From the NCBI GenBank assembly GCA_905478465.1, contig CAJQIN010000012.1, positions 98,890-158,942 of the forward strand: DNA of 60,053 bases. The letters run 5' to 3'. The notes beneath the pieces are model-generated. The model did no database searches, was not told where the DNA came from, and worked only from the letters and a program-made list of their open reading frames with translations. The DNA comes from Minisyncoccota bacterium. Its GTDB lineage: Bacteria; Patescibacteriota; Minisyncoccia; Phycocordibacterales; CAJQIN01. The translations under genes were made by a program, and so were the position numbers. This document shows, piece after piece, positions 6,393 to 56,174 of this stretch. How positions within the stretch are numbered: the stretch's first letter is position 1; each line of letters begins with the position of its first letter.

Positions 6393-6430
6393 TATAGCAA
6401 AAACACCCCTTATGGGGTGTTTTTGCTATA
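6393..6430. terminator. Terminator downstream of tRNA-Gln
   Basis: 17-bp arms tatagcaaaaacacccc / ggggtgtttttgctata. Confidence 0.8.
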
Positions 6431-6484: not shown

Positions 6485-6559
6485 TGGCTGCCCGACAAGG
6501 ACTCGAACCTCGATTTCCTGGACCAAAACCAGGCGTCACTACCATTAGACGATCGGGCA
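6485..6559 (-). tRNA. tRNA-Gln(UUG), CCA encoded
   Basis: Cloverleaf; anticodon arm CCTGG-TT-TTG-GT-CCAGG; GGTTCGAGTCC T-arm. Confidence 0.95.
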
Positions 6560-6560
6560 A

Positions 6561-7250
6561 TTAATTTATATTATCACATATTCCCTCAATCCAGCCCATA
6601 ACTTTTCGATTGAGATCTGTACTCCTGCTAACGCGTATTCTTAACAATCCCCAATAACTATCACCTGTATTTTTTCGGACAGTTTTAGGATTATGTTTTT
6701 TGTAATACACGTAAGTAATTGCACTCTCAGGAAATCCCGTTACCTGAGACCAATTATTTTTTATATCTTTTACACGACATTTTGCTGTCTCATGTACATA
6801 CAAAGACAACTTTATCCTATCTCGTGTAACTAGCACTATATCAATTAACCACTTGATATACAACTTTATCATTCTAGGGTCCGAATTCCCAAAATCTAAC
6901 CCTGAAGACGGTCTGAGCTTTTTCGCTTTTGACCCCTCGGCCCAATAAAGTGCTGTACCGATAAGCCTCAACTCTTGCTTTGAAAGATTTTCAATATCTT
7001 TCTTTGCCTGAATAATGATTTTTTGCGTAGATTCTATTCTTTGTTTTTGTCGAGCTTCAGCACCTCTTTTTTGTGCGGCAATACGTTTTTGTGTGAGTTT
7101 TTGTTTCTGTGGTTTTGCAAGATTAACCTCCAAGAACCACAGAGAAAGTGTTGATTTTGCAACAGAAACAACTGATAAAATCTCTGAATAAGTTTTACCC
7201 GCCTTTCTCAAAGCAACTGCTTTCTTCTTTTCTTCAATTTTAGGTATCAT
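6561..7250 (-). CDS. HTH plus LAGLIDADG-like domain protein
   Basis: N-terminal HTH (GKTYSEILSVVSVAKSTLSLW); LIGTALYWAEGSK helix followed by LDFGNSDPRMIKLYIKWL, typical of LAGLIDADG-like folds. Confidence 0.6.
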   Translation of the reverse strand: MIPKIEEKKKAVALRKAGKTYSEILSVVSVAKSTLSLWFLEVNLAKPQKQKLTQKRIAAQKRGAEARQKQRIESTQKIIIQAKKDIENLSKQELRLIGTALYWAEGSKAKKLRPSSGLDFGNSDPRMIKLYIKWLIDIVLVTRDRIKLSLYVHETAKCRVKDIKNNWSQVTGFPESAITYVYYKKHNPKTVRKNTGDSYWGLLRIRVSRSTDLNRKVMGWIEGICDNIN

Positions 7251-7294
7251 GGTAGGATATACTTATCTTACCATGATACCTACCGCTAAGAACT

Positions 7295-8326
7295 CTACCC
7301 TTTTGAAATATCAATAATCGCAAGTTCCAAAGGGAGCTCCGGAAGAAAAGCTATTTTAATTTCATCATATGCCCGAAGAAGGGTCAGCAGAGTTTGTGAA
7401 TTATATTCATAGGTACTATTTTTTGAAATTTCCAAAAGAAATTCAAAATCATCTTCAGATGTTTGCACCTTAATAACATGCTCCATCTTTGGCGCATAAC
7501 GAAGCAACAAAAGAAAACGCATTCTCTGTAAAACAAGTTTAAAAAACACCTTCATTTCTACATTTGCATCAACTGCTTTTTTAACAGCCTCAATTCCCTT
7601 TTCTGTATCCTTTTCTACAATACCTCTAATATACTGATGGATAAGAGTTGTTTTAGGCGCACCCGTAATCCTCTCTACCTCCTCTACTGTAATGGTCTTA
7701 TCTACAGATGAAGAAATAACTTTCTGTAACATACCAAGAGTGTCTCTAAACGAACCATCACCAAGAAGAGCAATGAGATCTGCAGAAGATGTCTCAAAAG
7801 TATACCCCTCTTTTTCTGCCACACGCTGTGTCATTAAAGAAAGAGTTTTCTGATTTGGTTTTTTAAAATTATGAACCTGACAACGAGAAACTATAGTTTC
7901 TGGAAGCTTTTCTATTTCTGTTGTTGCTAGAACAAAAATCACATGCGCAGGTGGCTCTTCCAGAGTTTTCAAAAATGCATTGAATGCTGATTTTGAAAGC
8001 ATATGCACCTCATCAATAATATAAAATTTGTATGTTGAATGGAAAGGTAGAGTACTCACAGACTCCTTGAGTTCACGAATATCATCTACCCCAGTATTTG
8101 ATGCGGCATCTATTTCATAGACATCACTTTCATTTGTTTTCAGGGCTTTAGCAAAAATACGTGCAATAGATGTTTTCCCTGTTCCACGTGTACCCGAAAA
8201 AAGATACGCATGTGCTATTTTCTTTGTTTCGATAGCACCCTCAAGTGCCTGAACAACTTGTTCCTGACCGATAACATCTTTAAATGTTTCCGGGCGATAC
8301 TTTCTATACAATACAGTTTCTGACAT
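7295..8326 (-). CDS. dnaX: DNA polymerase III subunit gamma/tau (short form)
   Basis: LYRKYRP, GTRGTGKTS, IIDEVHML, TIVSRC. Confidence 0.95.
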   Translation of the reverse strand: MSETVLYRKYRPETFKDVIGQEQVVQALEGAIETKKIAHAYLFSGTRGTGKTSIARIFAKALKTNESDVYEIDAASNTGVDDIRELKESVSTLPFHSTYKFYIIDEVHMLSKSAFNAFLKTLEEPPAHVIFVLATTEIEKLPETIVSRCQVHNFKKPNQKTLSLMTQRVAEKEGYTFETSSADLIALLGDGSFRDTLGMLQKVISSSVDKTITVEEVERITGAPKTTLIHQYIRGIVEKDTEKGIEAVKKAVDANVEMKVFFKLVLQRMRFLLLLRYAPKMEHVIKVQTSEDDFEFLLEISKNSTYEYNSQTLLTLLRAYDEIKIAFLPELPLELAIIDISKG

Positions 8327-17819: not shown

Positions 17820-17870
17820 ACACCTTTATAAAAATAACTAGATACTATCTAGTTATTTTTATAAAGGTGT
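17820..17870. terminator. Bidirectional terminator-like 25-bp perfect inverted repeat
   Basis: acacctttataaaaataactagata-c-tatctagttatttttataaaggtgt between convergent topA and parB. Confidence 0.8.
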
Positions 17871-20665: not shown

Positions 20666-20708
20666 CTAAAAGCAAAAAACCACACAATGTGTGGTTTTTT
20701 GCTTTTAG
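20666..20708. terminator. Terminator downstream of rpmG
   Basis: 21-bp perfect arms ctaaaagcaaaaaaccacaca / tgtgtggttttttgcttttag with a 1-nt spacer. Confidence 0.8.
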
Positions 20709-56128: not shown

Positions 56129-56174
56129 GAAGCATTCAAAAACAGCCTCATTTGAGGCTGTTTTTGAATGCTTC
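56129..56174 (-). terminator. 22-bp perfect inverted repeat downstream of the att-like tRNA fragment
   Basis: gaagcattcaaaaacagcctca-tt-tgaggctgtttttgaatgcttc. Confidence 0.7.

What the first reader, a model, noticed from the sequence alone, without database searches (positions are those of the whole stretch)
6485..7282. HTH/LAGLIDADG-like gene abutting a tRNA, with its start codon locked in a 19-bp hairpin
The ORF stops 1 nt before the tRNA-Gln 5' end on the same strand, wedged between dnaX and the tRNA. Arms 7241-7259 and 7264-7282 (taggtatcatggtaggata / tatcttaccatgataccta, one mismatch, 4-nt loop) cover the ATG and first three codons. As RNA this would silence translation; as DNA it is a dyad operator for the protein's own HTH. 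Established: homing endonuclease genes are often translationally repressed by hairpins over their start. Inference: a self-silenced, tRNA-targeting selfish element or a tRNA-linked regulator.
Basis: partly seen in the sequence, partly recalled or inferred. Interest (0 to 1): 0.6.

Follow-up and report, generated by a model that had tools for sequence, protein, structure and literature searches.

The report
tRNA-linked endonuclease-like gene with gated start
A gene for a DNA-binding, homing-endonuclease-like protein is wedged between dnaX and tRNA-Gln in a tiny-genome bacterium, with its start codon inside a conserved hairpin that also carries a likely promoter, a control layout known so far mainly from selfish genes of phage T4.

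Summary
ORF 6561-7250(-) ends 1 nt before tRNA-Gln(UUG), and an 18/19-bp hairpin (7241-7282) covers its ATG.

The protein has an HTH, a long helix and a domain with a LAGLIDADG-like fold. It belongs to a large unnamed family of Patescibacteria and big phages.
- Members lie almost always beside tRNA genes: 74 of 77 Gln-type loci, other tRNAs for paralogs, and tRNA arrays in phages.
- In same-order relatives without the gene, the dnaX stop lies 1-5 nt from tRNA-Gln. These are clean empty sites.

The hairpin is not a one-off. An inverted repeat ending at the ATG is enriched across orthologs.
- It shows compensatory covariation and more G·U than A·C mispairs, which points to pairing in sense RNA.
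- In 72 of 77 loci an extended -10 box (TGnTATAAT) lies upstream of the ATG, in 54 of them between the arms. In this window it lies inside the 5' arm.

Best reading: a free-standing homing-endonuclease-type gene whose start is hidden on read-through dnaX transcripts and exposed on transcripts from its own promoter.

Against active mobility: the gene tree follows the dnaX tree and dN/dS is about 0.1. Cleavage and transcript ends are untested.

This scan had already noted the family on other genomes. The promoter-in-hairpin analysis and the empty sites are new here.

The parts
7295..8326 (-). dnaX-like gene (343 aa), upstream neighbour; probable source of read-through transcripts
   Evidence: ORF list. 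It is upstream of the family gene in 53 of 80 ortholog loci. No terminator-like site lies between it and the ORF.
7264..7282 (-). 5' arm of the hairpin
7265..7273 (-). Extended -10-like box TGgTAAGAT inside the 5' arm; hexamer ends 14 nt before the ATG
   Evidence: it is in register with the TGnTATAAT boxes of 72 of 77 orthologous loci, 50 of them with TG. Controls inside the ORF gave 8/77 and 1/77. The transcription start has not been mapped.
7260..7263 (-). 4-nt loop
7241..7259 (-). 3' arm of the hairpin, covering the ATG (7248-7250) and the next two codons
6561..7250 (-). ORF of 229 aa: HTH + long helix + LAGLIDADG-like domain
7122..7250 (-). N-terminal three-helix HTH (residues 1-43)
   Evidence: Pfam HTH_23. 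VIA matches to resolvase, Tc3 and TrpR HTH domains, Z 5.7-6.3, rmsd 1.4-2.1.
6990..7091 (-). Long connecting helix (residues 54-87)
   Evidence: AlphaFold model
6564..6986 (-). C-terminal LAGLIDADG-like domain (residues 89-229)
   Evidence: Model pLDDT 94. VIA: WhiA 7.5, I-DmoI 7.2, TliVMA intein endonuclease 6.8, E-DreI 6.3, I-Tsp061I 6.2, I-Vdi141I 5.7.
6927..6950 (-). Motif LYWAEGSK (residues 101-108) at the end of the first helix of the domain; E105 is the candidate metal-binding acid
   Evidence: Y102, W103, E105, G106 and K108 are invariant in A1 and at least 90% conserved in 94 diverse members. hhalign places YWAEG on FAADG of canonical LAGLIDADG_3 proteins.
6485..6559 (-). tRNA-Gln(UUG), starting 1 nt after the stop codon; the only UUG copy in the assembly
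6393..6430 (-). Intrinsic terminator (17-bp stem, then T run) that closes the unit after the tRNA

Best explanation
The ORF is a free-standing gene of the homing-endonuclease type: an N-terminal HTH, a linker helix and one LAGLIDADG-like domain that keeps its acidic residue. It occupies the 1-5-nt gap that otherwise separates the dnaX stop codon from tRNA-Gln(UUG).

Its expression appears to be gated by a promoter-in-hairpin module.
- Transcripts that read through from dnaX carry both arms. They fold the 18/19-bp stem and bury the AUG, so the host's dnaX-tRNA transcript yields tRNA but little protein.
- Transcripts that start about 7 nt downstream of the extended -10 box (TGgTAAGAT, inside the 5' arm) lack the 5' arm. 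They have a short leader of about 8 nt and can be translated.
- Both kinds of transcript end in tRNA-Gln, which RNase P would release by a cut one base after the stop codon.

Shown here: the anatomy, the family-wide tRNA linkage, the empty sites, the fold similarity, the covariation in the stem and the conserved -10 box. Inferred: DNA cleavage or homing, the transcript start sites, translational repression, and co-transcription with the tRNA.
For: **Anatomy**
- ORF, tRNA and hairpin are as described.

**Fold**
- HTH plus a LAGLIDADG-like domain.
- Invariant YWAEG-K motif.
- 3 of 94 members touch Pfam LAGLIDADG_3.

**tRNA linkage**
- 73 of 77 Gln-type loci have tRNA-Gln(UUG) starting -21..+76 nt from the stop; 30 overlap the tRNA by 15-21 nt. 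One more was found by Rfam.
- 17 of 19 metagenome loci have it too.
- 27 of 47 paralogs sit directly 5' of Arg, Lys, Met, Gly, Ile, Asp or Ala tRNAs, and others sit just 3' of a tRNA.
- All 11 phage-contig relatives lie in tRNA arrays.

**Distribution**
- Patchy and multicopy: 130 of 301 genomes of the class have a match, with up to 9 matches in one genome.

**Empty sites**
- In the same order, about 17 loci have dnaX followed directly by tRNA-Gln with no ORF. The gap is 1-5 nt in five of them.

**Hairpin**
- Enriched at the start codon.
- In 28 aligned loci, 88.9% of cells are paired. The covariation score is 0.385 against 0.18 in shuffles (0 of 500 as high), and five pairs change on both sides.
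- G·U 21 against A·C 8.

**Promoter and transcription unit**
- A TATAAT-like box in 72 of 77 loci, with TG in 50, between the arms in 54. Controls gave 8 and 1.
- Paralogs show the same GAAC...(-10)...GTTC layout.
- No terminator between dnaX and the ORF; a terminator follows the tRNA.
- No consistent -10 box just before the tRNA.

**Precedent**
- In T4, I-TevI/II/III, segB and Aeh1 mobE use an RNA structure that hides the translation start on upstream transcripts. A promoter is placed so that their own transcripts cannot form it. segB is a free-standing endonuclease gene in the T4 tRNA cluster (PMC2988022).
Against: **Weak homology**
- No sequence-level link to known LAGLIDADG families: Pfam gives only a weak HTH for this protein, a PDB profile search found nothing, hhalign gave E 0.24 and Foldseek found no match.
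- Structural Z scores are middling (at most 7.5), and the non-catalytic WhiA scores as high as the true endonucleases.

**Signs of a host-kept gene**
- The ORF tree recovers the dnaX clades (A1, A2, A3, and 17 of 18 members of B). The Mantel correlation is r = 0.60. Inheritance is therefore mostly vertical.
- dN/dS of 0.05-0.22 shows long-term purifying selection. Both fit a domesticated gene as well as a selfish one.

**Uncertain control module**
- The window's -10 hexamer (TAAGAT) matches only 4 of 6 positions, and the consensus promoter scan did not call it.
- The one mismatch in the window's own stem is A-C, not G-U.
- The closest available relative (58% identity, L174) keeps the -10 box and the TATCCTACC-ATG leader but not the long 5' arm.
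- No transcript data could be obtained.
Confidence: 0.5

Rival explanations
1. The gene is a domesticated DNA-binding protein, a WhiA-like descendant of a LAGLIDADG enzyme. It regulates transcription of its own promoter and the attached tRNA gene, and it is kept by the host rather than spreading as a selfish element.
For: - WhiA is the best structural match (Z 7.5).
- The ORF tree is congruent with the dnaX tree.
- dN/dS is about 0.1.
- A GAAC...GTTC core flanking the -10 box is shared even by paralogs, and the HTH recognition helix is nearly invariant.
Against: - The distribution is patchy: 2 of about 24 informative dnaX loci in the order, and about 7% of the class for the Gln type.
- There is a separate paralog for each tRNA and up to 9 matches per genome.
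- Relatives lie in phage tRNA arrays.
- The LAGLIDADG acidic residue, which WhiA has lost, is retained here (the loss in WhiA is from my own knowledge of the WhiA structure papers).
- The architecture differs from WhiA: one domain and an N-terminal HTH.
Confidence: 0.22
2. The inverted repeat works mainly as DNA. It is a dyad operator around the -10 box, bound by a dimer of the protein's own HTH or LAGLIDADG domain, giving transcriptional autorepression as I-TevI does at its operator. It is not an RNA hairpin.
For: - The dyad brackets or overlaps the -10 box in 54 of 77 loci.
- The AAC/GTT core is invariant in 28 aligned loci.
- I-TevI autorepression through an operator overlapping its promoter is a precedent (PMC2988022).
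- This reading is compatible with the best explanation, and both could operate.
Against: - Five stem positions change on both sides while keeping complementarity, although the HTH recognition helix (KSTLSxW) is nearly invariant.
- Mispairs favour G·U over A·C, 21 to 8, a strand asymmetry that duplex DNA does not explain.
- Clade A1 and this window lack the GAAC/GTTC core altogether.
Confidence: 0.15
3. The hairpin belongs to dnaX rather than to the ORF. It would be a 3'-end stabiliser, processing site or weak terminator for the dnaX message, and it overlaps the next start codon only because the spacer is short.
For: - It begins 12 nt after the dnaX stop.
- This genome uses many long hairpins as terminators.
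- Two loci (L036, L050) have a T run after the stem.
Against: - There is no T tract after the stem in the window or in most loci.
- The 3' arm tracks the family's ATG rather than the upstream stop. It is also found in paralogs and orthologs with other upstream genes.
- Empty sites have no such hairpin after dnaX, because the tRNA follows within 1-5 nt.
Confidence: 0.08

Closest known systems
[quoted passage not shown]
   Same: - The gene sits in a host transcription unit.
- An RNA structure hides the translation start on transcripts from upstream promoters.
- A promoter of its own is placed so that its transcripts cannot form the structure.
- segB lies among tRNA genes and targets that region (PMC2988022).
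   Different: - The T4 enzymes are GIY-YIG or HNH; this protein is LAGLIDADG-like with an HTH.
- This is a cellular (Patescibacteria) chromosome, with no early/late phage programme.
- The stem here hides the AUG itself, and no Shine-Dalgarno sequence is evident.
- Endonuclease activity is untested here.
Single-motif and pseudo-dimeric LAGLIDADG homing endonucleases (I-CeuI, I-CreI type; I-DmoI, I-Tsp061I, I-Vdi141I)
   Same: - A core domain of similar fold (Z 5.0-7.2 over the whole 144-residue domain).
- A small-xxx-small helix ending in an acidic residue followed by Gly (YWAEG).
   Different: - No significant sequence or profile similarity.
- An extra helix lies between the strands.
- It has an N-terminal HTH and a 34-residue linker helix.
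- It is free-standing, beside tRNA genes, rather than inside introns or inteins.
WhiA (DUF199), a LAGLIDADG-derived transcription factor
   Same: The best structural match (Z 7.5). It also combines a LAGLIDADG fold with an HTH for DNA binding.
   Different: - WhiA has two degenerate LAGLIDADG domains and a C-terminal HTH, lacks the catalytic acids, and is a conserved single-copy host gene (my own knowledge).
- This family has one domain, an N-terminal HTH and a conserved Glu, and it is patchy and multicopy.
LAGLIDADG endonucleases in rRNA-gene insertions of CPR bacteria (J Bacteriol 2024, PMC11270868)
   Same: The same host group, and LAGLIDADG-type genes associated with genes for stable RNAs.
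   Different: - Those lie inside rRNA insertion sequences and are recognisable LAGLIDADG proteins.
- That paper does not mention tRNA, free-standing genes or HTH (0 occurrences).

Membership tests
LAGLIDADG homing endonucleases | alpha-beta-beta-alpha-beta-beta-alpha core fold | tested here: met
   With the domain model (pLDDT 94), 8 of the top 10 VIA-align matches are LAGLIDADG-fold chains spanning residues 1-144, Z 5.7-7.5. The same set was found with the full-length model. Confidence is moderate: Z is below 8 and Foldseek found none.
LAGLIDADG homing endonucleases | LAGLIDADG helix ending in a conserved acidic residue followed by Gly | tested here: met
   In LYWAEGSK, E105 and G106 are invariant in 27 sequences and at least 90% conserved in 94. 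hhalign places YWAEG on FAADG of canonical proteins.
LAGLIDADG homing endonucleases | Significant sequence or profile similarity to curated LAGLIDADG families | tested here: not met
   There is no LAGLIDADG Pfam hit for this protein. Only 3 of 94 members reach E 0.0014 for LAGLIDADG_3. The PDB profile search was empty. hhalign against LAGLIDADG_3 proteins of related genomes gave E 0.24.
LAGLIDADG homing endonucleases | Site-specific double-strand cleavage of an allele that lacks the gene | not testable with these tools
   This needs purified protein and empty-site DNA.
Homing (mobile) endonuclease genes in general | Presence/absence polymorphism at one precise site, with intact empty sites | tested here: met
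   In the same order, dnaX is followed directly by tRNA-Gln in about 17 loci without the ORF and by the ORF in 2. The empty gap is 1-5 nt in five loci.
Homing (mobile) endonuclease genes in general | Gene phylogeny incongruent with the host, showing horizontal spread | tested here: not met
   The ORF tree recovers the dnaX clades and needs only 5 label changes where 4 is the minimum. Family relatives in phage tRNA arrays show that transfer happened at deeper levels.
T4-type hairpin/promoter control of endonuclease genes | Stable RNA structure that sequesters the translation start | tested here: met
   The predicted stem covers the AUG. Its occurrence is conserved, with covariation and a G·U bias. 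The effect on translation is untested.
T4-type hairpin/promoter control of endonuclease genes | The gene's own promoter is placed so that its transcripts lack the 5' arm | tested here: inconclusive
   The extended -10 motif is conserved in the right place, in 72 of 77 loci and between the arms in 54. No transcription start data exist, and no RNA run was listed.
WhiA-like regulators | Two degenerate LAGLIDADG domains plus a C-terminal HTH, catalytic acids lost, conserved single-copy gene | tested here: not met
   This protein has one domain, an N-terminal HTH and a conserved Glu, and the family is patchy and multicopy.
Intrinsic terminator | G+C-rich stem followed by a T tract | tested here: not met
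   AAAATTGAAG follows the stem. The scan called only the site at 6393-6430.

The most novel reading that the evidence does not exclude
This is a selfish endonuclease gene that lives inside the 5' leader of an essential tRNA and is locked in place by it.
- It brought the promoter that now helps to make tRNA-Gln.
- Its mRNA is the tRNA precursor, so RNase P cutting one base after the stop codon (or inside the ORF in the 30 loci that overlap the tRNA by 15-21 nt) competes with its translation.
- The start-codon hairpin keeps it silent on host dnaX transcripts.
- This dependence would explain why a homing-type gene is inherited vertically under purifying selection for a very long time, and why each branch of the family is tied to one tRNA.
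Probability: 0.2. Interest if true: 0.75.

Novelty: new variant of a known kind. Interest (0 to 1): 0.6.

Why it matters
If the reading is right, it has four consequences.
- A large unnamed protein family is a new branch of LAGLIDADG-type enzymes with an HTH targeting module. It has 3,347 clusters at 50% identity with E up to 0.001 and no matching family in Pfam, NCBIfam or PHROGs. It specialises in tRNA genes of ultra-small bacteria and large phages.
- The promoter-in-hairpin trick described for phage T4 endonuclease genes is a general solution for selfish genes embedded in host transcription units. Here it is supported by covariation across dozens of lineages.
- In these bacteria a protein-coding message routinely serves as the 5' leader of a tRNA, with the dnaX stop 1-5 nt from tRNA-Gln. 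This bears on how their tRNAs are made.
- Such enzymes could be a source of new long-site nucleases.

Everything functional is still inference, and the family had already been noticed by this scan on other genomes.

Tried and rejected
**Homology searches that found nothing useful**
- Foldseek against the PDB gave no LAGLIDADG hit with either model. The top rows (YfiB, IspF, MotB; E above 0.008) were judged spurious.
- A PDB profile search gave 0 hits.
- NCBIfam gave only a noise hit. PHROGs gave nothing for this protein. The ESM Atlas gave no usable hit.
- hhalign against canonical LAGLIDADG_3 proteins from related genomes was not significant. Against HTH+LAGLIDADG_3 proteins only the HTH aligned (E 3.4e-4).

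**Ideas tested and dropped**
- A tRNA promoter hidden in the 3' end of the ORF: there is no positionally consistent TAnnnT before the tRNA in 73 loci.
- The hairpin arms copy or complement the tRNA, as an I-TevI-like operator resembles its homing site: no overall enrichment, median z about 0. Only clade A1 has a leader, GTCCTACC, complementary to the D-arm.
- Chance: rejected.
- Terminator: rejected, as there is no T tract.

**Searches that were uninformative**
- The tRNA-Gln(UUG) loci of two ORF-less genomes (L123, L130) are not next to dnaX and show no dyad.
- The same-genus genome G336 has neither dnaX nor the UUG locus assembled, only tRNA-Gln(CUG).
- No RNA holder was listed for the region.

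Full report
**1.

On the minus strand the window reads, in order:
- a dnaX-like ORF (7295-8326);
- 12 nt of spacer;
- a hairpin (arms 7282-7264 and 7259-7241, loop 7263-7260);
- a 229-aa ORF (7250-6561);
- one base;
- tRNA-Gln(UUG) (6559-6485);
- a strong intrinsic terminator (6430-6393).

The stem has 18 of 19 pairs, with one A-C mismatch. It covers positions -9 to +10 around the ATG. As RNA it folds at -32.1 kcal/mol, z = -6.0. The window is full of long inverted repeats, but those are A-run/T-run terminators between genes. This one has no T tract and sits on a start codon.

**2. The protein**

Pfam sees only a weak HTH_23 match. Homology searches nevertheless find 3,598 proteins of about 230 aa, all 'hypothetical' and from Parcubacteria/Paceibacteria-type metagenome genomes. 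They fall into 3,347 clusters at 50% identity with E up to 0.001.

AlphaFold gives three parts:
- a three-helix HTH (residues 1-43);
- a 34-residue helix;
- a compact C-terminal domain. Modelled alone with 94 sequences, this domain reaches pLDDT 94.

Foldseek finds nothing convincing. An exhaustive structural alignment does better. Eight of its top ten matches have the LAGLIDADG fold, each spanning the whole domain (the same set):
- WhiA (Z 7.5, 6.3, 6.1);
- I-DmoI (7.2);
- the endonuclease domain of the TliVMA intein (6.8);
- E-DreI (6.3);
- I-Tsp061I (6.2);
- I-Vdi141I (5.7).

The family's most conserved block, LYWAEGSK, lies at the end of the first helix of that domain. Its Glu-Gly is invariant. 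Profile alignment puts YWAEG on FAADG of canonical enzymes, although that comparison is not significant (E 0.24). The N-terminal domain resembles resolvase, Tc3 and TrpR HTH domains (Z about 6), and 80 of 94 members match HTH_23.

I therefore accept 'HTH plus a divergent single LAGLIDADG-like domain with its acidic residue kept'. Confidence is moderate, and nuclease activity is unproven.

**3. The tRNA linkage is a property of the whole family**

*Gln-type orthologs*
- Relatives are encoded in 505 of the species-representative genomes.
- Of the 80 loci fetched, 77 could be analysed. In 73 of them tRNA-Gln(UUG) starts -21 to +76 nt from the stop on the same strand. One more was found by Rfam, and the other three loci end 60-98 nt after the stop.
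- In 30 loci the ORF runs 15-21 nt into the tRNA, with the stop codon in the D-arm.
- 17 of 19 metagenome loci have the tRNA as well.

*Paralogs*
- 27 of 47 lie directly 5' of tRNA-Arg, -Lys, -Met, -Gly, -Ile, -Asp or -Ala.
- Many of the rest lie just 3' of a tRNA or next to a group I intron.
- The window's own genome has a paralog 14 nt upstream of a tRNA-Arg/Gly/Pro cluster.

*Phage contigs*
- All 11 relatives, on contigs of 12-499 kb, are embedded in tRNA arrays.

*Distribution*
- It is patchy and multicopy. 130 of 301 sampled genomes of the class have a match, only about 21 have the Gln type, and one genome has up to nine matches.

**4. Empty sites**

In the window's own order, dnaX is followed directly by tRNA-Gln(UUG) without the ORF in about 17 of 24 informative loci. 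Only the window and one other genome carry the ORF there.

In five empty sites the dnaX stop codon is 1-5 nt from the tRNA's first base. Two conclusions follow:
- A coding gene abutting tRNA-Gln is the ancestral state, which implies that dnaX and the tRNA are co-transcribed.
- The ORF with its upstream module is a clean insertion into a gap of a few bases, or a clean deletion from it.

**5. The hairpin is conserved, and it contains a promoter**

*Occurrence.* In most orthologous loci, a segment at or over the ATG is complementary to a segment 30-50 nt upstream. Such a repeat is individually significant in 43% of loci, against 13.5% at dnaX starts and 4% inside the ORF.

*Covariation.* I aligned 28 upstream regions and tested a 10-bp helix:
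- 88.9% of cells are paired, against 27-46% when the partner column is slid.
- The covariation score is 0.385, against 0.18 in shuffles (0 of 500 as high).
- Five positions change on both sides. One of them is A-U in 11 loci, C-G in 7 and U-A in 6.

*Strand asymmetry.* Mispairs are G·U 21 times and A·C 8 times (one-sided binomial p = 0.012; the lineages are not independent). That asymmetry is expected for pairing in sense RNA and not for duplex DNA.

*Promoter.* An extended -10 box occupies the space between the arms:
- A TATAAT-like hexamer lies 8-45 nt before the ATG in 72 of 77 loci. The control inside the ORF gives 8 of 77.
- It is preceded by TG in 50 loci (control 1).
- It lies between the arms in 54 loci.
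- It ends 14-15 nt before the ATG in one host clade and 23-27 nt before it in the other.

In this window the box is TGgTAAGAT (7273-7265). It lies inside the 5' arm, 14 nt from the ATG, in register with the TGnTATAAT boxes of its relatives. A transcript started there would begin at about the first base of the 3' arm and could not form the stem.

Paralogs next to other tRNAs show the same GAAC...(-10)...GTTC layout. Nothing terminator-like lies between dnaX and the ORF. No consistent promoter precedes the tRNA inside the ORF.

**6. Mechanism proposed**

Read-through transcripts from dnaX are the ancestral route to tRNA-Gln. They carry both arms and hide the AUG. Transcripts from the element's own promoter lack the 5' arm and can be translated from a very short leader. 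Both kinds deliver the tRNA.

[quoted passage not shown] There, an RNA structure forms only on transcripts from upstream promoters, and a late promoter placed next to the gene frees the start site. segB is itself a free-standing endonuclease gene in the T4 tRNA cluster (PMC2988022).

The DNA-operator alternative also has a T4 precedent, I-TevI autorepression. It is not excluded, but it is the weaker reading. The stem covaries while the HTH recognition helix is almost invariant, and the G·U bias is strand-specific.

**7. What argues against an actively mobile element**

- The ORF tree recovers the dnaX clades: A1, A2 and A3 intact and B 17 of 18, with 5 label changes where 4 is the minimum.
- Pairwise distances of the two proteins correlate (r = 0.60, Mantel p = 0.0005). 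The ORF distance plateaus at 0.50.
- dN/dS is 0.05-0.22.

The gene has therefore been inherited with its locus for a long time, under selection, and lost often. That fits a domesticated regulator. It equally fits a selfish gene that has become hard to delete because the tRNA's expression now runs through it. The T4 review makes the same argument for promoters embedded in seg and mob genes.

**8. Verdict**

Its interpretation is largely right, with one amendment: the hairpin is one half of a two-transcript switch, not a plain self-silencer.

The family has no name in Pfam, NCBIfam or PHROGs, and I found no paper that describes it. This scan had already flagged the same family on other genomes, and one follow-up reached the 'tRNA-gene-specific free-standing LAGLIDADG endonuclease' reading. 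I re-derived the tRNA linkage and the phage-array context independently.

New here are the empty sites, the mostly vertical inheritance and the covariation-supported promoter-in-hairpin module. Cleavage activity, transcript starts and translational repression remain to be shown.

Noticed in passing
G000 contig C2:2502-3014(-) (own genome, outside the window; locus L201:1081-1788): A canonical two-motif LAGLIDADG_3 gene (236 aa, two Pfam hits above cut-off) lies between tRNA-Met (C2:3789-3863) and tRNA-Asp (C2:2312-2387) on the same strand. It is a second, recognisable LAGLIDADG gene beside tRNA genes in this genome.
   Followed up: partly
G000 contig C2:97009-97605(-) (locus L002): A paralog of the window's protein (33% identity) ends 14 nt before a tRNA-Arg(TCG)/tRNA-Gly/tRNA-Pro cluster.
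   Followed up: partly
loci L135, L136, L149, L152, L161 (same-order genomes): Without the inserted gene, the dnaX stop codon lies only 1-5 nt from the first base of tRNA-Gln. The dnaX message itself would then be the tRNA's 5' leader in these bacteria.
   Followed up: partly
window 7241-7258(-) and tRNA D-arm; loci L071, L056, L049, L040, L018, L009: The short leader (G)TCCTACC just before the ATG in one clade (CTACCAT in the window) is complementary to GGTAGGA(C) in the D-arm of the tRNA-Gln about 700 nt downstream. It is not enriched across all loci (median z about 0), so it may be chance or a clade-specific long-range pairing.
   Followed up: partly
window 7400-7427(-): A promoter-like site, TTCAAA-16-TATAAT (10 of 12), lies inside the 3' end of dnaX. 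A transcript from it would carry the whole hairpin in its leader. It is a single consensus match and is not significant against shuffles.
   Followed up: no
loci L112, L089, L103: Group I introns (Rfam RF00028, 64-83 bits) lie within about 30-130 nt of family paralogs. In L112 the intron is 33 nt downstream of the ORF, probably inside an intron-split tRNA gene that ARAGORN missed.
   Followed up: no
loci L091 and L101: Two family paralogs lie in tandem, one directly after the other, upstream of a single tRNA-Lys(CTT). The 420-580-aa proteins with two matched stretches may be such tandems read as one.
   Followed up: no
loci L194, L195, L196 (same-order genomes): These Pfam-recognisable LAGLIDADG_3 proteins carry an N-terminal HTH whose sequence aligns with this family's HTH (hhalign E 3.4e-4, HTH only). 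They may be a bridge between the family and canonical enzymes.
   Followed up: partly
window 17820-17870, 56129-56174, 20666-20708, 2931-2967: Perfect inverted repeats with arms of 18-25 nt and loops of 1-2 nt lie elsewhere in the window. Several have A-run/T-run flanks and look like bidirectional terminators.
   Followed up: no
G000 contig C23, upstream of tRNA-Asn (411-484): A tandem repeat of an ATATATACGATA-like unit fills the 90 nt upstream of tRNA-Asn.
   Followed up: no
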